Below are positions 689-61,421 of a stretch of 64,000 nucleotides of DNA, in pieces. Position numbers and translations under genes: made by a program. Origin of the DNA: Minisyncoccia bacterium. GTDB lineage: Bacteria > Patescibacteriota > Minisyncoccia > Phycocordibacterales > UBA918. The notes below the pieces were generated by a model that did not search any database, was not told the DNA's origin, and saw only the letters and a program-made list of their open reading frames with translations. Each line of letters starts with the position of its first letter. Position 1 is the stretch's first letter. The stretch is from positions 62,602-126,601 of the forward strand of contig JBGSPE010000003.1 in the NCBI GenBank assembly GCA_041738755.1. The letters are read 5' to 3'.

Positions 689-739
689 TCCCTAAACATA
701 TCTGTTAACAGCTATGTTTAGCACACGGTGTTTGACTGA

Positions 740-952
740 TTTAATACTCATGCTACGATGTATTACATCAGAGATTGTAGTGGCCACCAACCATTAGTTT
801 ATGTATCATATATGATACATAAATGGACTACTTCCCTAATCTGAACTAATGAGCGCTGTGCAGGCATACCTGCCAGAATCTCGGTGGAACCGCGGTCTAG
901 ATCGCCCGAGTGAGTATACGAACCTTCGTGTATTCACTCGGGCGCTTTTTTA
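740..952 (+). promoter_or_regulatory. T-box riboswitch leader of thrS (antiterminator/terminator switch); the 5' boundary is approximate
   Basis: AATCTCGGTGGAACCGCGG at 877-895 matches the T-box consensus AATTAGGGTGGTACCGCGG. Antiterminator: CUCGG(880-884)/CCGAG(906-910) and GCGG(892-895)/UCGC(902-905), leaving a 7-nt UGGAACC bulge. The competing terminator stem is cgcccgagtga(903-913)/tcactcgggcg(934-944) followed by CTTTTTT. Stem-III-like hairpin GCAGG CAUA CCUGC at 861-874. ACC-A (Thr codon plus purine) at 786-789 and 790-793. Possible promoter TTGACT (733-738)/TACGAT (755-760). Confidence 0.55.
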
Positions 953-1106: not shown

Positions 1107-2858
1107 ATGTCAGAACAACTAAACAATAAACGACACACACTAGCCCACCTCTTGGCTGCGGCGGTCATTGAAACGTATCCCCATGCAAAATTGACCCTTG
1201 GTCCGGCTATCGATACGGGCTTCTACTACGATATCGACTTCGCTGAGGGAGATGTACCTGGTGACAGTGATCTCAAAGACCTCCAAAAGTTGATGAAGAA
1301 ACTCATCAACAAATGGACTGAATTCACTCACGAAGTCGTGACGGTAGATCGTGCTCAAGAAGTCTTTGCTGGTAACCAGTACAAGCTTGAATTGATTGAT
1401 GAAATTGATTCACGAGGCGAGACGATTACCCTCTACACAGTCGGTGGATTTACCGACCTTTGTCGGGGTGGACACTGTAACAATCCGAAAGAAGACATTA
1501 GTACTGATGCCTTTAAGCTCGACAAAATTGCGGGAGCCTACTGGCGCGGAGATGAAAAAAACCCAATGCTCACTCGTATCTACGGCATCGCATTTGATAC
1601 AAAAGAAGAACTTGAAGGCTACGAAAAGCAACTTGAAGAAGCAAAAGCCCGTGACCATCGTAAACTTGGGAAAGAACTTGACCTCTTTACCTTCTCTGAT
1701 TTGGTCGGACCTGGTCTTCCGCTCTTCACTCCGCGCGGTACGATGATGCGTGATCTTATCGTCGATAAAATCATGACTATTCAAGCCAAATACGGCTATC
1801 AAAAAGTCACCATCCCTCACATAACCAAAAGTGACCTCTACAAAACCTCTGGTCATTGGGAAAAGTTTGGTGATGAACTTTTCAAAGTAAAAGGTCAATC
1901 TGACGCTGAGTTTGTCATGAAGCCTATGAACTGTCCGCATCATACCCAAATTTTCGACAGCCGACCGCGCTCATACAAAGAACTTCCTATTCGCTATGCT
2001 GAAACAACCATGGTCTACCGGGATGAACAAGCCGGTGAATTGATTGGGTTAGGGCGCGTTCGAAGTATCACACAAGATGACGGTCACGTGTTCTGTACTG
2101 TTGATCAGATTGACCAAGAAGTCGAAAATATCGTTCGAGTGATACAAGAATTCTACACCTCACTAGGAATGTACAATGATGGTAATTTCTGGGTTTCACT
2201 CTCTACTAGCGATCCAAACAAGCCGGAAGACTATCTTGGTGATAGAGAAAACTGGAAAAAAGCTGAGACTATGCTCGAAGCAGTTGCTACGAGACTCAAC
2301 TTACCGTATAAGCGGATTGAAGGTGAAGCTGCATTTTACGGACCAAAACTCGACTTTATGTTCAAAGACGCCATTGGTCGTGAACGTCAGCTGGCGACCG
2401 CTCAGCTTGATTTTGTGATGCCGGAGCGTTTCTCTCTTTCCTACACAGATAACACTGGAGTGAAGCAAACACCCGTCATGATTCACCGAGCAATCGCGGG
2501 GTCACTCGAACGGTTTATGGCTATCATGATTGAGCACTTTGCAGGTAACTTCCCGCTTTGGCTCTGCCCAACACAACTAGCCATCATCCCCGTAGCAGAT
2601 ACACATACCCCGTACGCGCGAGAGATTGCAGCCCATTTGAAAAACCATAATTTCCGGATTGAACTTGATGAATCAAACGAAAGTATGGGTAAGAAGATTC
2701 GCACAGCTAAGAAGGACCGACTCCCCTACTTCATCGTCATCGGTGATAAGGAAGTGGAGAATAAGACCGTTACTCTTGAATCACGTGATACCGGTGAGTC
2801 AGTAACTCTGAACTTAGAGGAACTAATAGAGAAACTGACTGCAGAAAATACCAGGTAG
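1107..2858 (+). CDS. thrS: Threonyl-tRNA synthetase, short form lacking the N-terminal TGS domain but retaining the editing domain
   Basis: 583 aa. N-terminus 'RHTLAHLLAAAVIETYPHAKLTLGPAIDTGFYYDIDF' is editing-domain-like; class II core motifs and anticodon-binding C-terminus recognised by eye. Confidence 0.9.
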   Translation: MSEQLNNKRHTLAHLLAAAVIETYPHAKLTLGPAIDTGFYYDIDFAEGDVPGDSDLKDLQKLMKKLINKWTEFTHEVVTVDRAQEVFAGNQYKLELIDEIDSRGETITLYTVGGFTDLCRGGHCNNPKEDISTDAFKLDKIAGAYWRGDEKNPMLTRIYGIAFDTKEELEGYEKQLEEAKARDHRKLGKELDLFTFSDLVGPGLPLFTPRGTMMRDLIVDKIMTIQAKYGYQKVTIPHITKSDLYKTSGHWEKFGDELFKVKGQSDAEFVMKPMNCPHHTQIFDSRPRSYKELPIRYAETTMVYRDEQAGELIGLGRVRSITQDDGHVFCTVDQIDQEVENIVRVIQEFYTSLGMYNDGNFWVSLSTSDPNKPEDYLGDRENWKKAETMLEAVATRLNLPYKRIEGEAAFYGPKLDFMFKDAIGRERQLATAQLDFVMPERFSLSYTDNTGVKQTPVMIHRAIAGSLERFMAIMIEHFAGNFPLWLCPTQLAIIPVADTHTPYAREIAAHLKNHNFRIELDESNESMGKKIRTAKKDRLPYFIVIGDKEVENKTVTLESRDTGESVTLNLEELIEKLTAENTR

Positions 2859-13998: not shown

Positions 13999-15024
13999 AT
14001 GAATAACGTTACCATTGAAGTTGAAAAGAAAACTGTCGTCATGAAGTCTTTGGCAATCCTAGGCCTCATTTTTATCATTAGTTTCATTGCGTGGTTATCA
14101 GTTCAAATCGTTGCGGTAGCGCCAAGCGCCTTCTCTTCCCTGGCCTCGCTCGCAAGCAGCATCTCAGATGCGCGTGAAGAGGTGGTTGAAGAAATGAAGG
14201 AACCAGAAGTCCTCACCATCCAGAGCAACACTCAAACTATTACCACGAGCGAGCAAGTGGTACTTTCCTGGGACGACGTAGACGCACCTGGTACCTATGC
14301 ATTTGTGTACGAATGTTCAAATGGAGTAACGGTTGAAATTACGGGAGTTGATGGATTTCGAAATATCGCCTGTGGCACCAACTACAACCTTGGTGATATC
14401 CAAAACCTGACCTTCACCGTTGCCTCAAATGAAATTCGCAGTACCGACATCGCGTACACTATTTCATTTTTAAGAAGTGATGAAACAAAGCCATCACACA
14501 TCGGAAGCGGTACAGTAACCGTTACAAATCTTGCGATTGCTGATCCAAATGAACCAGTAGTCGAAGCAGAGGAGGAAACCCCAGAAGTCGTAGTTGAAGA
14601 AGAGGCTCCAGCCGTTACTCCTCCGGTGGTAGTTGAAGAGCCAGAATTTGTTTTCGAAATCCCCGTCTCAAATCCAAATGGTACCGCCGACCTTACAACT
14701 CGATTTCTCAATGTTGGAGAAATTATCAATAATCGCTTTGTTGCAGGCACAGTTGAGAGAGATGAAACAGGAGCTATTCAATTTGAAGTCCGAAACATTG
14801 GTAATAAAACTTCAGAGTCATGGAGTTTCGAAGTAAGCTTACCTGACGGTTCAACCTATGAGTCAACTACGCAAGCGCCACTTCGACCAAACGAACGAGC
14901 AACCCTTGCCCTTGGCTTCGAAGCTGATGGCGGATCAAGTTTTACGTTTGAAGTTTCCGTTGAAAGTGACGATGAACGAACTGAAAACAATAATTCATTC
15001 CGACAAATCGTTTCATTTCGATAG
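13999..15024 (+). CDS. N-terminally membrane-anchored protein with a Glu/Pro/Val-rich linker and a CARDB-like domain
   Basis: TM 'LAILGLIFIISFIAWLSVQIVAVA'; linker 'EPVVEAEEETPEVVVEEEAPAVTPPVVVEEPE'; C-terminal 'DERTENNNSFRQIV' CARDB-type signature. Possible promoter TTGACA(13961-13966)/TATGTT(13984-13989). Confidence 0.65.
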   Translation: MNNVTIEVEKKTVVMKSLAILGLIFIISFIAWLSVQIVAVAPSAFSSLASLASSISDAREEVVEEMKEPEVLTIQSNTQTITTSEQVVLSWDDVDAPGTYAFVYECSNGVTVEITGVDGFRNIACGTNYNLGDIQNLTFTVASNEIRSTDIAYTISFLRSDETKPSHIGSGTVTVTNLAIADPNEPVVEAEEETPEVVVEEEAPAVTPPVVVEEPEFVFEIPVSNPNGTADLTTRFLNVGEIINNRFVAGTVERDETGAIQFEVRNIGNKTSESWSFEVSLPDGSTYESTTQAPLRPNERATLALGFEADGGSSFTFEVSVESDDERTENNNSFRQIVSFR

Positions 15025-15030
15025 AAATAC

Positions 15031-15066
15031 AAAAAGTCCCGGGCCATTGGCCCGGGACTTTTTGTA
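15031..15066. terminator. Bidirectional terminator between 13999..15024 and gyrB
   Basis: Stem gtcccgggcc(15036-15045)/gcccgggac(15050-15058) flanked by AAAAA and TTTTT. Confidence 0.65.
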
Positions 15067-15069
15067 TTT

Positions 15070-17145
15070 CTAAATATCCACGTTCGCCATTTTGGCGTTG
15101 TTTTGAATAAATGATTTTCGACTTGGAACGTCGTTCCCCATCAAAATATCAAACACTCGGTCGGCCGCCATCGCGTCTTCGACACAGACTTGCTTCAAGA
15201 TTCGATTGGCTGGATTCATCGTTGTTTCCCAGAGCTCGTCCGCGTTCATTTCTCCCAGACCCTTGTACCGTTGAATACGTGCCTTCCCTGTCTTCTTGAC
15301 CACCTCTTCGGTCTCTTCCTCTTCACTCTCATCTACTACTTCAACATCCTCACTCACGTCTTCACCCATATCCTTAAGGATAGAGAATTTTTCAGTGTCA
15401 TCAAACGCATACCGAACGTCTTTCCCTTTCTGAATTTTATAGAGTGGTGGTTGCGCAATATAGACAAATCCTCCATCAACTAACTGTCTAAAGTAGCGGT
15501 AGAACAGCGTTAAGAGTAACGTTCGAATGTGTGCACCGTCAACGTCTGCGTCAGTTGCGATAATAATCTTGTGATACCGTAATCGAGAGATATCAAACAC
15601 GTCGCCAATTGCTGTCCCAAGCGCAATCACGAGATTTTTAATCTGTTCTGACGCCAGCATTTTATCAATTCGGGCCCGCTCGACATTAAGAATCTTACCT
15701 CTAAGTGGCAAAATAGCCTGCGTCTTTCGGTCCCGCCCCATCTTGGCTGATCCACCGGCTGAGTCTCCCTCCACAATAAAGATTTCGGAATCTTCCGCCC
15801 GCTTACTTTGACAGTCGGCCAACTTACCCGGAAGTGACATCCCTTCAAGGGCACCCTTACGAAGCACGCTATCCTTAGCTGCCTTAGCTGCCTTACGGGC
15901 TTTTACCGCAATAATCACTTTGTTTATGATGGCTTTTGCGTCATCTGGGTTTTCTTCAAGGAAATTATTAAATGCCTCACCAAAGACTGATTCGGTTGCA
16001 CTTCTAGCCTCCACTGATCCAAGCTTGGCTTTGGTTTGTCCTTCAAATTGAATCTCAGGCATCTTTACCGATACTACTGCCGTGATACCTTCGAGTACAT
16101 CGTCACCGGTAAAGCCAGCGTCTTTGTCTTTGACTGAGAAAAAATTATTTTTCTTAGCGTAGGTATTGAGGGTTCTTGTTAGCGCGGTTTTAAAACCAGT
16201 GATGTGAGTCCCGTGCTCTGGGTTATAGATATTGTTCGCAAACGCAGTGATTCTCGGTGAAATATCATCGACGTATTGAAGCGCAACTTCTACCGACAAC
16301 ACCGCCGCATCAACCTCATTTTTTTCAACGTAGAAAATATTTTTATGAACGGGCTTTTGGTACTTGTTATTAAACGCCACCAATGACCGTAGTCCACCTT
16401 CAAAGTAGAAAGTCTGTTGTGGTACGACCAAGTGCTCATCGGCCAGATATTGCTTACCCTTAAGATCAAGTTTCTTTTGAACATCTTCATCGATGTCTCT
16501 CGCATCAATCACCGTCAGATGCATAGCTTTCACCAAGTACGCTTGTTGTCTCAAGTGGGTGAAGATTCGCTTGTAGTCGTATTTAATTTCTTTGAAGATA
16601 TCAATATCTGCCTTGAATGTAATCACCGTACCTTGGAGTTTTGAGGGACCTATTTTCTTAGTTTTATAAACTGGCTTCCCAATTTTATATTCCTGCATGT
16701 GATAGCTACCGTCTCGATGCACTTCTGCAATCAAGTGCTCTGAAAGAGCATTCACAACCGATACCCCTACCCCGTGCAGTCCACCAGACACCTTATAACC
16801 TGATTCATCACCACCAAACTTTCCTCCGGCGTGCAGCACGGTCAAAATAGTTTCAAGGGCAGATACACCAGTCTGCTTATGAACATCAACTGGAATTCCT
16901 CGGCCATTATCAACGACGCGAATATAATTGTCAGGCAAGAGTGCCACTTCAACCCGATTAGCAAAACCGCCCATCGCTTCATCGCGTGAGTTATCAAAAA
17001 TCTCCCAGATCAAGTGATGCAATCCATCAGGACCAGTCGTGCCAATGTACATCCCCGGACGCTTTCGCACTGGCTCGAGTCCTTCGAGAACGGAAATTGA
17101 GGAAGCGTCGTAATTTTTACTCTTTTCAGGTTTTTTCGCCGGCAT
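15070..17145 (-). CDS. gyrB: DNA gyrase subunit B
   Basis: 691 aa. N-terminal GHKL ATPase ('LEGLEPVRKRPGMYIGTTGPDGLHHLIWEIFDNSRDE'), Toprim 'EGDSAGGSAK', C-terminal GyrB tail. Confidence 0.9.
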   Translation of the reverse strand: MPAKKPEKSKNYDASSISVLEGLEPVRKRPGMYIGTTGPDGLHHLIWEIFDNSRDEAMGGFANRVEVALLPDNYIRVVDNGRGIPVDVHKQTGVSALETILTVLHAGGKFGGDESGYKVSGGLHGVGVSVVNALSEHLIAEVHRDGSYHMQEYKIGKPVYKTKKIGPSKLQGTVITFKADIDIFKEIKYDYKRIFTHLRQQAYLVKAMHLTVIDARDIDEDVQKKLDLKGKQYLADEHLVVPQQTFYFEGGLRSLVAFNNKYQKPVHKNIFYVEKNEVDAAVLSVEVALQYVDDISPRITAFANNIYNPEHGTHITGFKTALTRTLNTYAKKNNFFSVKDKDAGFTGDDVLEGITAVVSVKMPEIQFEGQTKAKLGSVEARSATESVFGEAFNNFLEENPDDAKAIINKVIIAVKARKAAKAAKDSVLRKGALEGMSLPGKLADCQSKRAEDSEIFIVEGDSAGGSAKMGRDRKTQAILPLRGKILNVERARIDKMLASEQIKNLVIALGTAIGDVFDISRLRYHKIIIATDADVDGAHIRTLLLTLFYRYFRQLVDGGFVYIAQPPLYKIQKGKDVRYAFDDTEKFSILKDMGEDVSEDVEVVDESEEEETEEVVKKTGKARIQRYKGLGEMNADELWETTMNPANRILKQVCVEDAMAADRVFDILMGNDVPSRKSFIQNNAKMANVDI

Positions 17146-23649: not shown

Positions 23650-24036
23650 ATGAAATGTCTCACTTGCTCAAAAGAGCTAAAGCCCTATCAAAAGAAATAT
23701 TGTTCAAATCTGTGCCAACATGAGCAGCAGAATCGTGAATATATTAAACTCTGGAAAGCAGGACAGGCAGATGGAAATCGTGGCAAAAAAGTAAAGCTTT
23801 TATCAAAACACTTACGTCGCTACTTAATATCTAAACATGACGAAAAATGTTCTCAATGTGCATGGTCAATAAAACATTCAGTTACTGGAGTTGTACCTCT
23901 TGAGATTGATCATATTGATGGTAATGCAGAGAATAATGCCGAAGAAAACCTACGACTCTTATGTCCAAATTGTCACGCACTAACCCCGCACTTTAGAAAC
24001 TTAAATCGCGGACACGGTCGAACATGGAGAAAATAA
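23650..24036 (+). CDS. HNH endonuclease with an N-terminal Cys-rich zinc finger
   Basis: 'CxxC...CxxxC' N-terminus; HNH core 'EIDHIDGNAENNAEENLRLLCPNCHA'. Confidence 0.65.
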   Translation: MKCLTCSKELKPYQKKYCSNLCQHEQQNREYIKLWKAGQADGNRGKKVKLLSKHLRRYLISKHDEKCSQCAWSIKHSVTGVVPLEIDHIDGNAENNAEENLRLLCPNCHALTPHFRNLNRGHGRTWRK

Positions 24037-24066
24037 AAGGACCGCTGTGAAGCGGTCCTTTTATTA
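24037..24066. terminator. Hairpin terminator after the HNH gene (also downstream of tRNA-Thr on the other strand)
   Basis: Stem ggaccgct(24039-24046)/agcggtcc(24051-24058) with a GTGA loop, plus TTTTATT. Confidence 0.55.
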
Positions 24067-30132: not shown

Positions 30133-30168
30133 AAAAAAGCCGAGGACCGTTGGTCCTCGGCTTTTTTA
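30133..30168. terminator. Bidirectional rho-independent terminator between the pfkB-like gene and transketolase
   Basis: Stem gccgaggacc(30139-30148)/ggtcctcggc(30152-30161), AAAAAA upstream and TTTTTT downstream. Confidence 0.7.
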
Positions 30169-58372: not shown

Positions 58373-60895
58373 CTATTTGGTCACGATGGTCCAACCTGAC
58401 TCTAGGAGTTCTTCAGCCTTTTTGTACTTGAGCTCTCTGGTCTCTTCACCATTGGTGACCATGACGATGTCATTTCGGTTGAAGGTCTCAACTTTCACAA
58501 TTGGTGTACTTTTCTTGCTCTTGCTCTCGGCAGTTGCTCCGGCAGCAGCTTGTGCTGCGATAGCTTCTTCTTTTCGTGCAGCTTCTTCTTTGACAACCAC
58601 TTGTGGTTGGAGGTTCGGGAGGATTTCTGACATTCGGTACAGGGTCGCTGCTTCCATTTCTTTGAAGAGTCTGGTTCCTTCTTTTCGGTATTCAATGAGT
58701 GGGTCTCGTTGACCATAGGCACGCAAGCCCACGCTTGAGCGGGTGTAGCTCATCACCTCAAGGTGCTCTACCCAGAGCATATCAATCATCTGTAGCGCCA
58801 AACGACGGAAGAGATCGAGGAAGACGGTCTCACCGAACTCACTTTTCTTTTGCTCAATGAGCGGTGACACCTGGGCGTAACTCGCTTCAAGTTCTCCGAG
58901 GACTTTGGCGACTTCGCTCTCATCACCCGTCAGGAGCTTTCGCCGTCTGGCATAGATAGTCTGGCGATGTTGGTTTAAGACATCATCGTACGCGAGGATT
59001 TGCTTTCGCGAATCAAAGTGGAAGCCTTCAATTTTGGTCTGAGCACTTTCGAGAGTTCGGGAAATCAGCTTCATTTCAATTGGTTGATCGGCTGGGATAC
59101 CAAAGGTACCCATGAGACTCTGGACGCGCGCGCCACCAAAGACTCGCATCAGTGAGTCGTCCATTGAAACAAAGAACTGCGTTTCTCCTGGGTCACCTTG
59201 TCGTCCAGCTCGTCCGCGCAACTGATTATCGATACGCCTGGCTTCGTGTCGTTCGGTACCAAGGACAAAGAGTCCACCCAAGGCTTTCACAGCATCAGAT
59301 TCTTCCGTGCTGGCTTCCGGTCCACCGAGCTTGATGTCGACTCCTCGACCAGCCATGTTGGTAGCGAGTGTTACCGCACCAACCTTTCCGGCTGCGGCAA
59401 TAATTTCTCCTTCTTGCTCATGATTCTTGGCGTTCAACATCTGGTGTGGGATTGAAGCTTTAGAAAGCGCTACCGCTAGTCGTTCGTTTGATTCAATCGA
59501 AGCTGTACCAATCAAGAGTGGTTGTCCCTTCTGGTGAATTTCTTTTACCTTATTAATGATAGCGGTAAACTTTCCTTCTTCATTTTGATAGATAAGGTCG
59601 TTATGGTCGCGGCGCGCAATGGTTCGGTTCGTTGGTACAGGAATCACCTCAAGGTTGTACACGGTGAAAAACTCTTCTTGTGAGGTAAGGGCGGTACCCG
59701 TCATACCAGAAAGCTTGTCGTAGAGTCGGAAATAGTTTTGGTAGGTAATTGATGCAAAGGTCTTTGACTCCTTTTGAATCTGAACACCCTCCTTGGCTTC
59801 CACGGCTTGATGGAGTCCATCAGACCAACGACGTCCTGGTTGGAGTCGGCCGGTGAATTCATCCACAATCACCACCTCACCGTCGCGTACAACGTACTCT
59901 TTATTATTGGTGAAAATTGCTCGGGCTCGCACAGCGGTCTCTAAGTGGTGTACGTAGCGAATTCCTTTTTCGGTATAAATATTTTCAATACCAAGGTGCT
60001 TTTCAGCTGCTTCGATACCAGCATCAGTCAGTGTAGCGCTCTTAAGCTTCTCATCGATGATGTAGTGCTCCTCAGGCGTTAATTTGGCTGCAATCGTAGC
60101 AAACAGTGGGTAGAGGTTTTCGGTGTCAGCAGCGGGCGCTGAGATGATAAGCGGGGTTCTCGCTTCATCGATAAGAATGGAGTCAATTTCGTCGATAATC
60201 GCGTACGCGTGATGTGGTTGTCGTAACTTATCCGCTTCGTATTCGATATTGTCACGCAAATAATCAAACCCAAACTCACTGTTAGTACCGTAGGTAATAT
60301 CAGCTCGATAGGCTTCGTGTCGTGAACACGGTCGCAAGAAATCATAGACGACTTTGTATGAACCTTTTTCGTCTCGTTCTTCATCAACCTCTTGGTGACC
60401 AGCGTCATAGAGATATGAGGCATTGTGATTGATAACACCAACCGTCAAACCAAGACCAGCATAAATCTGACCCATCCAAACAGCATCTCGTCGAGCCAGG
60501 TAGTCGTTTACCGTAATAACATGCACTCCTTTCCCGGTGAGGGCATTTAGAGTAGCTGGTAGCGTTCCTACCAACGTCTTCCCTTCACCAGTACGCATCT
60601 CGGTAATCTTTCCTCGATGGAGAATAATCCCACCAATCATCTGCACATCGTAGTGTCGCATGGCCATGGTGCGCTTGGCTGACTCACGCACGAGCGCAAA
60701 GACTTCTGGCAAAACACTCTCCAAAGTCGCGCCAGCAGCCACCTTATCTCGATTGGCCTGAAGCTGGGTTTTGAGACCTCCATCACTTAAGGCAGCTATT
60801 TCTGCCTCTTTTTCATTAATAGCCTTAATAATAGGCTTAATTTCTGCTAATTCCTTTTCGTAGGTCGGACCGAAAAATTTATCTAAGAATGACAT
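58373..60895 (-). CDS. secA: Preprotein translocase ATPase SecA
   Basis: Start at ATG 60895 'MSFLDKFFGPTYEKELAEIK...' (canonical SecA N-terminus). DEAD motor motifs 'MRTGEGKTLV' and 'DEID'. No Zn-finger C-terminal tail. Confidence 0.9.
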   Translation of the reverse strand: MSFLDKFFGPTYEKELAEIKPIIKAINEKEAEIAALSDGGLKTQLQANRDKVAAGATLESVLPEVFALVRESAKRTMAMRHYDVQMIGGIILHRGKITEMRTGEGKTLVGTLPATLNALTGKGVHVITVNDYLARRDAVWMGQIYAGLGLTVGVINHNASYLYDAGHQEVDEERDEKGSYKVVYDFLRPCSRHEAYRADITYGTNSEFGFDYLRDNIEYEADKLRQPHHAYAIIDEIDSILIDEARTPLIISAPAADTENLYPLFATIAAKLTPEEHYIIDEKLKSATLTDAGIEAAEKHLGIENIYTEKGIRYVHHLETAVRARAIFTNNKEYVVRDGEVVIVDEFTGRLQPGRRWSDGLHQAVEAKEGVQIQKESKTFASITYQNYFRLYDKLSGMTGTALTSQEEFFTVYNLEVIPVPTNRTIARRDHNDLIYQNEEGKFTAIINKVKEIHQKGQPLLIGTASIESNERLAVALSKASIPHQMLNAKNHEQEGEIIAAAGKVGAVTLATNMAGRGVDIKLGGPEASTEESDAVKALGGLFVLGTERHEARRIDNQLRGRAGRQGDPGETQFFVSMDDSLMRVFGGARVQSLMGTFGIPADQPIEMKLISRTLESAQTKIEGFHFDSRKQILAYDDVLNQHRQTIYARRRKLLTGDESEVAKVLGELEASYAQVSPLIEQKKSEFGETVFLDLFRRLALQMIDMLWVEHLEVMSYTRSSVGLRAYGQRDPLIEYRKEGTRLFKEMEAATLYRMSEILPNLQPQVVVKEEAARKEEAIAAQAAAGATAESKSKKSTPIVKVETFNRNDIVMVTNGEETRELKYKKAEELLESGWTIVTK

Positions 60896-60971
60896 AGTGG
60901 AGCTAGTATATATGTTTGTGGGGCCAATTACAAAGAAAACAGCGCTTTTTACACCGCTTACCACCATACCT

Positions 60972-61019
60972 AGCCAGACTCCTTTATGTATCAGGCATGA
61001 TACATAAAGGAGTCTGGCT
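60972..61019. repeat. Perfect 22-bp-arm inverted repeat (4-nt loop GGCA) upstream of secA; its inner 11-nt arms are identical to the palindrome at 798-823
   Basis: agccagactcctttatgtatca-ggca-tgatacataaaggagtctggct. No flanking U-run on either strand. Confidence 0.5.
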
Positions 61020-61235
61020 TCGTACTACATAAACTCTGAAGTTGTCCCCTGCGTAGAATTTGAGGCGACAAGATTTTAATTTAGGAAGTGTACTCAGATG
61101 TACAGTGACTAGATTAAAATCGCAGTCAACAATGAATTCTACCGGGAGCCAGCTTCAGAGACGCGAAATCGCCCCGAAGGGCGATTTACGCAATAAACTT
61201 GACACGCAGGTGGCGAACCTCCCCCGCATCATGGA

Positions 61236-61421
61236 TTATTTTTTTGAGGTCTTCTTCTTTGCAGCCTTCTTTGCTACCTTCTTGACGGTCTTCTTAGCAG
61301 GAGCTTTTTTAGCTACCTTCTTGACTACCTTCTTAGGTGCCTTCTTTGCTACTTTCTTCACAGTCTTCTTGACTGCCTTCTTTGCAACTTTCTTTGCTGG
61401 CTTCTTTTTTGCTGCTGGCAT
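61236..61421 (-). CDS. Small Lys/Ala-rich histone-H1-like basic protein (AKK(A/V) repeats)
   Basis: 'MPAAKKKPAKKVAKKAVKKTVKKVAKKAPKK...'; the DNA is a degenerate ~12-bp tandem repeat. ATG at 61421 preferred over the upstream TTG at 61466. Confidence 0.55.
   Translation of the reverse strand: MPAAKKKPAKKVAKKAVKKTVKKVAKKAPKKVVKKVAKKAPAKKTVKKVAKKAAKKKTSKK

What the first reader, a model, noticed from the sequence alone, without database searches (positions are those of the whole stretch)
798..823. 26-nt perfect palindrome in the thrS leader sharing 11+11 arms with an inverted repeat upstream of secA
tttatgtatca-tata-tgatacataaa (798-823) and agccagactcc-tttatgtatca-ggca-tgatacataaa-ggagtctggct (60972-61019) share identical 11-nt arms with a 4-nt spacer. 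Two copies of an 11+11 palindrome in 64 kb is very unlikely by chance. Both copies sit in 5' leader or upstream regions of essential genes (thrS, secA). Candidate explanations: operator for a dimeric regulator, a conserved RNA hairpin, or a small palindromic mobile repeat (REP/MITE-like).
Basis: seen in the sequence. Interest (0 to 1): 0.55.

Follow-up and report, generated by a model that had tools for sequence, protein, structure and literature searches.

The report
Repeated binding-site palindrome of a TrpR-like protein
The two identical palindromes are copies of a short DNA repeat found between genes in a group of tiny uncultured (CPR) bacteria, most likely the docking site of a small Trp-repressor-like protein, and both copies are recent additions near thrS and secA, not conserved parts of those genes' control regions.

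Summary
TTTATGTATCA-N4-TGATACATAAA occurs at 798-823 and 60983-61008, where the arms extend to a perfect 22+4+22 hairpin at 60972-61019. No shuffle of the window produced a match.

It is not a conserved part of either leader. Four relatives (ThrRS 85-87% identical) have the same thrS T-box leader without it. The region upstream of secA is hypervariable among relatives.

The exact core recurs in 15 genome stretches and 39 metagenome stretches. Most are Patescibacteria (CPR) and almost all sites are intergenic.

A 130-aa YerC/TrpR-family helix-turn-helix protein has this palindrome abutting its ATG and again 1-2 nt after its stop in every locus examined. Distant paralogues are bracketed by different palindromes of their own. 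One of these resembles the published TrpR operator consensus, and a relic of it sits at window 692-721.

Best reading, confidence about 0.55: a dispersed operator-like site for a TrpR-family dimer. It sits in a variable hairpin slot of the thrS T-box and at the apex of a hairpin upstream of the secA promoter.

Unresolved points:
- No family member is encoded in the 64-kb window.
- The set of neighbouring genes is not conserved between genomes.
- Half the copies are embedded in long, unique, perfect hairpins.
- Variant copies change symmetrically on both arms.

These features keep a selfish-repeat role or an RNA-hairpin role open.

The parts
798..823 (.). Type-B palindrome, copy 1 (TTTATGTATCA-TATA-TGATACATAAA). 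A bare copy with no extended arms, lying in the variable linker of the thrS T-box leader.
   Evidence: Absent from four orthologous leaders.
60972..61019 (.). Type-B palindrome, copy 2. The core is 60983-61008 (loop GGCA), at the apex of a perfect 22-bp-arm hairpin. No T-run on either side.
   Evidence: The region is not conserved in relatives L060-L062.
692..721 (.). Type-A palindrome (ctaaacatATCTGTTAACAGCTatgtttag). A single relic of the pair that brackets a TrpR-like gene at this position in relatives. It ends 10 nt before the thrS -35.
732..759 (+). Predicted thrS promoter, TTGACT-16-TACGAT, preceded by TG.
   Evidence: Conserved in relatives.
767..951 (+). thrS T-box leader. Ultrashort Stem I at 778-796 with an ACC specifier (786-788) in a 7-nt loop. 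Stem III at 860-873. T-box sequence at 883-894. Terminator at 903-944 followed by a T-run.
1107..2858 (+). thrS (threonyl-tRNA synthetase).
58373..60895 (-). secA.
60905..60933 (-). Predicted secA promoter, TTGTAA-17-TATACT. The -10 ends 9 nt before the ATG and is conserved in relatives.

Best explanation
The 26-bp palindrome is one copy type ('type B') of a small family of dispersed, intergenic palindromes in a Kaiserbacteria/Parcubacteria-like clade of Patescibacteria. I propose that it is the cognate double-stranded DNA site of a dimeric 130-aa YerC/TrpR-family helix-turn-helix protein. Each 11-bp arm (TTTATGTATCA) would be one half-site, and the 4-bp centre is only weakly constrained (YNNR).

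The protein's own gene carries one copy over its promoter and abutting its ATG, which suggests autorepression of a leaderless-looking mRNA. A second copy lies directly after its stop codon.

Extra copies arise in variable intergenic DNA and persist where a stable hairpin or a bound protein is tolerated or useful.

In this window both copies are lineage-specific additions:
- Copy 1 replaced about 8 nt of the variable linker between the ultrashort Stem I and the next hairpin of the thrS T-box leader. As RNA it is just another hairpin in a slot that holds unrelated hairpins in relatives. As DNA it would put a bound repressor about 31-56 nt downstream of the thrS start site, acting as a roadblock.
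- Copy 2 tops a 22-bp perfect hairpin just upstream of the secA promoter, where a bound protein and/or the hairpin would insulate secA from upstream transcription.

Shown: the family exists, it is intergenic, it is linked to the HTH gene, palindrome and protein co-vary across paralogues, and it is absent from orthologous leaders.

Inferred: protein binding, repression or roadblock, and insulation.
For: 1. Real family. The exact 10+4+10 core occurs in 15 stretches of GTDB species genomes, 13 of them CPR and up to 5 per genome, and in 39 metagenome stretches. None occur in viral contigs. Of 53 non-redundant copies, nearly all are intergenic. The 11th base, T, is kept in 73 of 80 arms.

2. Link to the protein. 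The 130-aa protein has a core variant abutting its ATG in all eight loci examined (L003, L008, L012, L016, L035, L063, L064, and L051, a duplicate of L008), including members only 50-61% identical. Where the DNA after the stop could be read, a core copy begins 1-2 nt downstream; in L016 only the inner GTATCA-N4-TGATAC is kept, and the L064 contig ends within the downstream copy.

3. Family identity. All 46 aligned family members hit Pfam Trp_repressor, best 7e-17. The profile hits solved YerC/TrpR-like structures 3KOR, 3FRW and 3G1C at E 1e-13 to 1e-12, and E. coli TrpR at about 2e-4. The best-probability Foldseek matches are the same proteins, although not significant.

4. Specificity co-varies. 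Paralogues 24% identical to type B are bracketed by ATGTATCTGTTAACAGATACAT in L056, L058 and L059; by TGTAGCGATTAATCGCTACA / CTAGCGATTAATCGCTAG in L057; and by ATAGTACGGTTAACCGTACTAT in L005. Their recognition helices differ.

5. The type-A core is TGTA-N12-TACA. It matches 12 of the 16 specified positions of the published TrpR motif TGTAcTnGTnnACnAgTACA (PMC9413887).

6. Not part of the T-box. Four orthologous leaders conserve Stem I, the CCTAATCTGAAC..GAGCGC segment, Stem III, the T-box sequence and the terminator, but carry unrelated short hairpins where the window has the palindrome.

7. DNA-level symmetry. The 4-nt centre is Y at position 1 (38 of 40) and R at position 4 (39 of 40). It is fully palindromic in 17 of 40 copies against 2.5 expected. 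An RNA loop would not require this.

8. The copies at the regulator's own promoter tolerate a one-arm change that creates TATAAT (L003, L012).
Against: 1. No member of the protein family is encoded in the 64-kb window (tblastn; hmmsearch at E<10), nor are its usual neighbours present. The rest of the source genome could not be read.

2. The genes next to sites differ completely between related genomes: rmuC, grpE-dnaK and NUDIX in one; rplT/RNase J, lysS and smc in another; thrS and secA here. This is unlike a conserved regulon.

3. About half of the copies are embedded in long perfect hairpins with unique outer arms, 7-20 extra bp. Variant cores are mostly changed symmetrically: 13 symmetric against about 5 asymmetric. 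Independent half-site recognition does not predict either feature.

4. Type B has TGTA-N10-TACA spacing, 2 bp shorter than known TrpR/HisR operators.

5. Copy 2 lies upstream of the secA promoter rather than over it.

6. There are no binding data of any kind.
Confidence: 0.55

Rival explanations
1. A selfish, self-propagating miniature palindromic repeat, analogous to REP or MITE elements. Its copies spread through intergenic DNA with no regulatory purpose. The TrpR-like gene bracketed by two copies would be its associated (mobilising or domesticated) protein, as RAYT genes are bracketed by REPs.
For: Copies are lineage-specific at both window sites. There is no conserved set of neighbouring genes. 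Copies cluster, for example 4 in 250 bp at L035 10404-10662 and 3-4 upstream of obg in L049. Nested and tandem arrangements occur in L047 and L049. The gene is precisely bracketed by copies. The type-A gene is present in four relatives and absent from the window, which keeps one palindrome at exactly that spot. In L034 two sites remain between the kinase and CoaE-like genes without the gene. Variant copies are symmetric, as expected if one arm is copied from the other.
Against: The associated protein is HTH-only, with no HUH, DDE or recombinase domain. There is no direct target-site duplication; flanks are inverted complements or unrelated. Copy number is modest: 5 exact cores in a 0.96-Mb genome. 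Gene loss between two 28-bp repeats is explained by ordinary recombination. Neighbouring genes are as conserved as the TrpR-like gene, 64-82% against 73-82%, so inheritance looks vertical rather than mobile.
Confidence: 0.2
2. An element that works as an RNA hairpin: a terminator, a transcript-stabilising or processing hairpin, or a structural stem of the T-box. The sequence conservation would reflect an RNA-binding factor.
For: Extended perfect stems occur in about half of the copies, and many of these lie between convergent genes or after stop codons with T-runs. Arm changes are compensatory. The palindrome fills the Stem II-like slot of the thrS T-box here and the Stem III slot of another T-box in L011. 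The predicted hairpins are very stable.
Against: The element is orientation-free. The 4-nt centre is itself symmetric or palindromic, which a loop does not need. Copies that abut the ATG of the regulator gene lie over the predicted -10 box and would mostly not be transcribed. One-arm changes that break pairing occur at those promoter copies. It is not conserved in orthologous leaders. Copy 2 has no U-tract on either strand. There is no Rfam family.
Confidence: 0.15
3. Dispersed binding sites of a chromosome-organising protein, in the manner of matS/MatP, SBS/SlmA, NBS/Noc or parS/ParB, rather than of a gene regulator.
For: There are a handful to dozens of identical palindromes per genome next to unrelated housekeeping genes. 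The protein has a C-terminal two-helix extension (residues 106-129) beyond the TrpR core that could bridge dimers.
Against: Sites avoid coding DNA almost completely and often overlap promoters or start codons. There is no positional (origin or terminus) information. The family belongs to amino-acid-sensing repressors.
Confidence: 0.07

Closest known systems
E. coli TrpR and the trp operator; HisR (YerC) operators of Firmicutes and Proteobacteria (PMC9413887)
   Same: A small dimeric PF01371 HTH protein. A roughly 20-bp palindromic operator with TGTA...TACA ends. A site in front of the regulator's own gene (autoregulation). The type-A palindrome matches 12 of 16 specified positions of the TrpR consensus.
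   Different: The CPR proteins carry a conserved C-terminal extension of about 50 aa (PFS..LKRRYPxHFLLF..EEL). The type-B site has 2 bp less between the TGTA and TACA ends. A second copy always follows the stop codon. Extra copies sit next to unrelated housekeeping genes and are often embedded in long hairpins. No amino-acid biosynthesis regulon is apparent.
REP elements with their RAYT (TnpA-REP) genes
   Same: Short extragenic palindromes that are dispersed, sometimes clustered, sometimes serve as terminators, and whose associated gene is flanked by two copies.
   Different: The associated protein here is an HTH DNA binder, not an HUH tyrosine transposase. Copy numbers are far lower. There is no GTAG-type head. 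The arms are perfectly symmetric.
CIRCE / HrcA
   Same: A highly conserved inverted repeat with a fixed spacer upstream of essential or chaperone genes, acting as a DNA operator while also forming an mRNA hairpin. One type-B copy sits upstream of grpE-dnaK in L014.
   Different: Different sequence, spacer (9 nt) and repressor family. The CIRCE regulon is conserved, whereas this one is not.
T-box leaders with an ultrashort Stem I (actinobacterial ileS type; from my own knowledge of Sherwood et al. 2015, not re-read here)
   Same: The thrS leader that hosts copy 1 presents its specifier codon in a terminal loop of a short hairpin. It has the canonical T-box sequence, antiterminator and terminator.
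   Different: The palindrome itself is not a T-box element. It fills a slot that is variable in relatives.

Membership tests
TrpR/YerC (PF01371) repressor-operator system | The associated protein belongs to the Trp_repressor family. | tested here: met
   46 of 46 family members hit PF01371, best 7e-17. The profile hits PDB 3KOR, 3FRW and 3G1C at E 1e-13 to 1e-12 and TrpR at about 2e-4. A single sequence, P0001, scores 25.4 bits against a cutoff of 27.
TrpR/YerC (PF01371) repressor-operator system | The operator is a roughly 20-bp palindrome of the TGTA-N12-TACA type. | tested here: inconclusive
   Type A (window 692-721 and relatives) fits: TGTATCTGTTAACAGATACA. The palindrome of the finding (type B) is TGTA-N10-TACA, 2 bp shorter.
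TrpR/YerC (PF01371) repressor-operator system | A site lies at the regulator's own promoter. | tested here: met
   The core abuts the ATG in L003, L008, L012, L016, L035, L063 and L064. Type A and type C copies lie at the -35 region of their own genes.
TrpR/YerC (PF01371) repressor-operator system | The regulator gene is present in the same genome as the sites. | not testable with these tools
   There is none in the 64-kb window. The 161,768-bp source contig could not be fetched; only a 9-kb Logan contig was returned.
TrpR/YerC (PF01371) repressor-operator system | The protein binds the site specifically, with ligand dependence. | not testable with these tools
   Requires EMSA, DAP-seq or ChIP.
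REP / RAYT | An HUH (Y1) transposase gene flanked by the repeats. | tested here: not met
   The flanked gene encodes an HTH-only TrpR-like protein.
REP / RAYT | Extragenic palindromes in high copy number (tens to hundreds). | tested here: inconclusive
   The copies are extragenic. Exact cores number only 5 in a 962,580-bp genome and 2 in this 64-kb window. They are denser in JRYF01 contigs, 26 relaxed sites in about 95 kb of site-seeded loci.
MITE | Terminal inverted repeats plus a direct target-site duplication. | tested here: not met
   Flanks are either unrelated or inverted complements of each other, never direct repeats.
T-box leader (RF00230): palindrome as a conserved element | The element is conserved at the same position in orthologous leaders. 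| tested here: not met
   Absent from L056-L059, while all other leader elements align.
Intrinsic terminator | A G+C-rich stem followed by a U-tract. | tested here: not met
   Neither window copy is called as a terminator. Copy 2 has 3 T and 2 A in the 8 nt flanking it. Several extended copies in other genomes do have T-runs.

The most novel reading that the evidence does not exclude
A previously undescribed kind of repeat-protein partnership in CPR bacteria. In it, TrpR-fold HTH proteins are each encoded in a cassette bracketed by their own palindrome, and the palindrome multiplies through intergenic DNA. Copies grow into long perfect hairpins, perhaps by hairpin-templated copying, and provide factor-bound boundary or terminator elements for very compact genomes. 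This would be a functional analogue of REP-RAYT, or of roadblock terminators, built on a repressor fold.
Probability: 0.2. Interest if true: 0.8.

Novelty: new variant of a known kind. Interest (0 to 1): 0.55.

Why it matters
Almost nothing is known about transcription control in Patescibacteria, which have very few regulators and cannot be grown easily. This analysis yields a concrete, testable pairing: one small protein family and a 26-bp site. The pairing shows co-variation between paralogous proteins and their palindromes.

It also shows that such sites can be dropped into a riboswitch leader without destroying it.

The unusual features are bracketing of the gene, symmetric evolution of the arms, growth into long perfect hairpins, and a non-conserved set of targets. 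If they reflect a repeat-spreading or boundary-forming mechanism, that would be a new way for reduced genomes to punctuate transcription. If not, this is an ordinary clade-specific repressor with its operator.

Tried and rejected
- **Chance.** Rejected: 0 of 100 shuffles gave a match, and the motif recurs in many genomes.
- **Integral T-box stem.** Rejected: absent from four orthologous leaders.
- **Known RNA family.** None at Rfam gathering thresholds over the whole window. Only the weak T-box hit and noise appeared at E≤10 around both sites.
- **NtcA/CRP-type box.** A literature hit on the half-site string. Rejected: the spacing is wrong (GTA-N10-TAC against GTA-N8-TAC) and the phylum is wrong.
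- **dif/Xer site, DNA-uptake sequence.** Considered from my own knowledge. Rejected: the arm orientation differs from dif, and isolated half-sites do not occur.
- **Phage or plasmid origin.** No motif and no protein relative in viral contigs. No convincing PHROG match.
- **Horizontal transfer of the regulator between CPR classes.** I first inferred this from the 73-82% identity. I withdrew it when neighbouring genes proved equally similar.
- **Pre-existing terminator at secA into whose loop the core was inserted.** Could not be shown: the whole spacer is non-homologous in relatives.
- **The 130-nt hairpin next to copy 2 as part of a repeated element.** No other copy was found in the window or in any locus.
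- **Helical phasing of clustered sites.** From centre-to-centre distances worked out by hand, no pattern emerged.
- **Foldseek on the AlphaFold model.** No significant hit: mean pLDDT 75, and the monomer of an intertwined dimer scores poorly.

Full report
**1. The observation**

Reading the window confirms the finding exactly.
- 798-823 is tttatgtatca-tata-tgatacataaa.
- 60972-61019 is agccagactcc-tttatgtatca-ggca-tgatacataaa-ggagtctggct.

A search that allows three mismatches returns only these two sites, and none of 100 dinucleotide-preserving shuffles gives any. The half-site occurs nowhere else except one 1-mismatch hit without a partner arm.

thrS (1107-2858) and secA (58373-60895, minus strand) are correctly identified.

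**2. Local anatomy of site 1**

The thrS upstream region is a transcription-attenuating T-box. Rfam gives a weak but specific hit (29.6 bits, E 7.5e-5, far below the gathering score of 93). The following features can be read directly:
- The T-box sequence GGUGGAACCGCG lies at 883-894.
- An antiterminator bulge UGGA matches the U discriminator of the window's tRNA-Thr.
- A 19-bp terminator plus U-run lies at 903-951.
- A TTGACT-16-TACGAT promoter lies at 732-759.

Aligning the leader with four relatives (ThrRS 85-87% identical) shows a conserved 6-bp hairpin with a 7-nt loop, C(C/U)ACCAA, that presents the Thr codon ACC (window 778-796). This hairpin is paired in all five sequences, with compensatory changes. 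It is an ultrashort Stem I.

Next comes a segment that differs in sequence and length in every relative. After it, conservation resumes with CCTAATCTGAAC..GAGCGC, Stem III, the T-box and the terminator.

The palindrome sits in that variable segment. It is absent from all four relatives, which carry unrelated small hairpins there. So it is not a conserved T-box element. It is a lineage-specific replacement in a slot that tolerates any hairpin.

**3. Local anatomy of site 2**

Reading in the secA orientation, the order of elements is:
- a conserved 61-aa Lys-rich ORF (61236-61421);
- a conserved GC-rich element plus terminator;
- a spacer;
- a conserved TTGTAA-17-TATACT promoter whose -10 ends 9 nt before the secA ATG.

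The spacer is about 60 nt in L062, about 200 nt in L061 and about 370 nt in L060, with no similarity to the window. In the window it holds a unique 130-nt imperfect hairpin (61040-61165) and the 48-nt perfect hairpin.

Copy 2 is therefore also lineage-specific. It has no U-tract on either strand.

**4. The motif elsewhere**

The 10+4+10 core was scanned in three collections.
- GTDB species genomes: 15 stretches, 13 of them Patescibacteria. One Kaiserbacteria MAG has five copies and one Parcubacteria MAG has four.
- Metagenome collection: 39 stretches.
- Viral contigs: none.

Of 53 non-redundant copies, almost all are intergenic. The conserved unit is 11+4+11: the 11th base is T in 73 of 80 arms. 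Bases beyond it are not conserved.

The centre is Y-N-N-R and is fully palindromic in 17 of 40 copies.

Copies fall into two classes.
- About half are 'bare'. These often lie within a few nt of a start codon.
- About half sit at the apex of much longer perfect hairpins (7-20 extra bp) whose outer arms are different in every copy. These often lie after stop codons or between convergent genes, and sometimes carry T-runs.

**5. The linked protein**

A 130-aa ORF is bracketed by the palindrome in three GTDB loci. One copy abuts its ATG (for example TTTATGTATCATATATAATACATAAATG, which contains TATAAT 6 nt before the ATG). Another begins 2 nt after its stop.

The copy abutting the ATG is present in L016, L035, and in members only 61% and 50% identical (L064, L063). 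In L063 a core variant also begins 1 nt after the stop. In L016 the downstream palindrome keeps only the inner GTATCA-N4-TGATAC. The L064 contig ends within its downstream copy.

The protein belongs to the YerC/TrpR family.
- Pfam Trp_repressor is hit by all 46 aligned relatives, best 7e-17.
- The family profile hits the solved YerC-like structures 3KOR, 3FRW and 3G1C at 1e-13 to 1e-12, and E. coli TrpR at about 2e-4.
- An AlphaFold model is helical with a confident HTH core. Its best-probability Foldseek matches are the same proteins, though they are not significant.
- Beyond the TrpR core there is a conserved C-terminal extension.

The word-index search finds only 20 close clusters. The exhaustive search finds 91 clusters at 50% identity.

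**6. Co-variation across paralogues**

In all four relatives of the window, a distant paralogue (131-140 aa, 24% identical to type B) lies between the 106-aa gene and thrS. It too is bracketed, but by a different palindrome. The palindromes seen are:
- AAAATGTATCTGTTAACAGATACATTTT upstream and ATATCTGTTAACAGATAT after the stop, in L056, L058 and L059;
- CTAGCGATTAATCGCTAG and TGTAGCGATTAATCGCTACA for the more divergent L057 protein;
- ATAGTACGGTTAACCGTACTAT for a third subtype in L005, whose downstream copy tops a 30-bp perfect stem.

Recognition helices differ accordingly: SPNTFTQIKRW, SLSTTHRIYRL, STSTSRLIYEK and SPSTAEKIRLD.

The type-A core is TGTA-N12-TACA. It matches 12 of the 16 specified positions of the TrpR motif quoted in PMC9413887. 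That paper also documents 20-bp palindromic operators and frequent autoregulation for HisR (YerC).

The window lacks the type-A gene but keeps one type-A-like palindrome at 692-721, 10 nt upstream of the thrS -35. This is the expected product of a deletion between the two bracketing copies.

**7. What this supports**

Three lines of evidence point to a protein-binding DNA site, that is, an operator in the broad sense:
- the tight physical coupling between palindrome and gene;
- the switch of palindrome with protein subtype;
- the TrpR-like site architecture, together with the symmetric centre.

For the window this implies two things.
- A bound dimer would sit about 31-56 nt downstream of the thrS transcription start, on top of T-box control. 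A relic of a second TrpR-type site lies just upstream of the promoter.
- A bound dimer and/or hairpin would sit just upstream of the secA promoter.

**8. What does not fit a simple regulon**

- No family member is encoded in the 64 kb. I could not read the rest of the genome.
- The neighbouring genes differ entirely between related genomes.
- Several spacers hold 3-4 copies.
- Half of the copies are embedded in long, unique, perfect hairpins.
- Variant cores are changed on both arms together: 13 symmetric against about 5 asymmetric. Within one contig, T/C at the outermost position pairs with A/G.

These features point to constraint or copying at the level of the palindrome or hairpin itself. 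They keep a selfish-repeat reading and an RNA-hairpin reading open.

The palindrome also fills the Stem III slot of a second T-box in L011. This shows it can serve as a plain structural hairpin in RNA.

I first took the 73-82% identity between differently labelled phyla as evidence for horizontal transfer. I withdrew that because neighbouring genes are equally similar.

**9. Comparison with known systems**

The closest known systems are TrpR-trpO and HisR (YerC) operators. What is the same is the fold, the palindromic site and autoregulation. What differs is the C-terminal extension, the second copy after the stop codon, the N10 spacing of type B, the hairpin-embedded copies and the unrelated housekeeping neighbours.

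The arrangement resembles REP-RAYT (a gene flanked by its repeats). However, the defining HUH transposase is absent and copy number is low. MITE criteria (target-site duplication) are not met.

I found no paper describing this motif or the CPR family.

**10. Verdict**

The operator option is best, the mobile-repeat option is partly supported, and the conserved RNA hairpin option is not supported for these sites.
- Novelty: a new variant of a known kind.
- Interest 0.55. The pairing of protein and site is concrete and testable in a group whose regulation is essentially unknown. The unexplained hairpin and symmetry features could hide something more unusual. The conservative reading, however, is an ordinary clade-specific repressor site.

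Noticed in passing
window 778-796 (within the leader 767-951): The thrS T-box has an ultrashort Stem I: a 6-bp hairpin with a 7-nt loop CCACCAA that presents the Thr codon ACC. It is paired in all 5 related leaders, with one double and two single compensatory changes. Rfam scores the leader at only 29.6 bits (gathering score 93), so such CPR T-boxes are missed by standard annotation.
   Followed up: partly
window ~978-1098: A second conserved structured RNA of about 120 nt lies between the T-box terminator and the thrS ATG. It has 40 predicted pairs, 10 with compensatory changes across 4 sequences. It is absent from relative L057 and has no Rfam match. It could be an additional thrS control element.
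   Followed up: partly
window 692-721: A type-A palindrome (ATCTGTTAACAGCT core) sits exactly where four relatives carry a 131-140-aa TrpR-like gene bracketed by two such palindromes. The window appears to have lost the gene and kept one site, 10 nt upstream of the thrS -35.
   Followed up: yes
L011 3401-3426: The same 26-nt palindrome occupies the Stem III position of another weak T-box hit (E 0.0037), upstream of an Asp/AsnRS-like gene in a Paceibacterota MAG.
   Followed up: partly
window 61040-61165: A unique, roughly 130-nt imperfect long hairpin lies next to copy 2. The region as a whole folds with a z-score of -9.8. It is absent from relatives and has no other copy in the window or the loci. 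It could be a small RNA or a decayed insertion.
   Followed up: partly
window 61170-61421 (minus strand): A 61-aa Lys-rich AKK-repeat ORF is followed by a conserved GGGGGAGGUUCGCCACCU element and a terminator hairpin. All three are conserved upstream of secA in the relatives.
   Followed up: no
window 60905-60910 versus the ATG at 60895; L003, L012, L035, L063: The -10 boxes end only 6-9 nt before the start codons of secA and of the TrpR-like genes, with no Shine-Dalgarno sequence. This suggests leaderless or near-leaderless mRNAs in this clade.
   Followed up: no
L035 10404-10662; L049 5553-5846: In JRYF01 contigs, three to four palindrome copies cluster within single intergenic spacers, for example upstream of obg. 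Nested and tandem arrangements occur in L047 and L049.
   Followed up: partly
L019, L023, L032, L037, L048: AT-rich (27-30% GC) contigs from moss-associated metagenomes conserve the same palindrome overlapping a gene start. They do not look like CPR and encode no TrpR-like protein in the DNA held.
   Followed up: no
window 15022-15072, 2869-2906, 30133-30167, 24032-24065: Long perfect A-run / GC-stem / T-run hairpins lie between genes. They are typical bidirectional intrinsic terminators, unlike copy 2.
   Followed up: no
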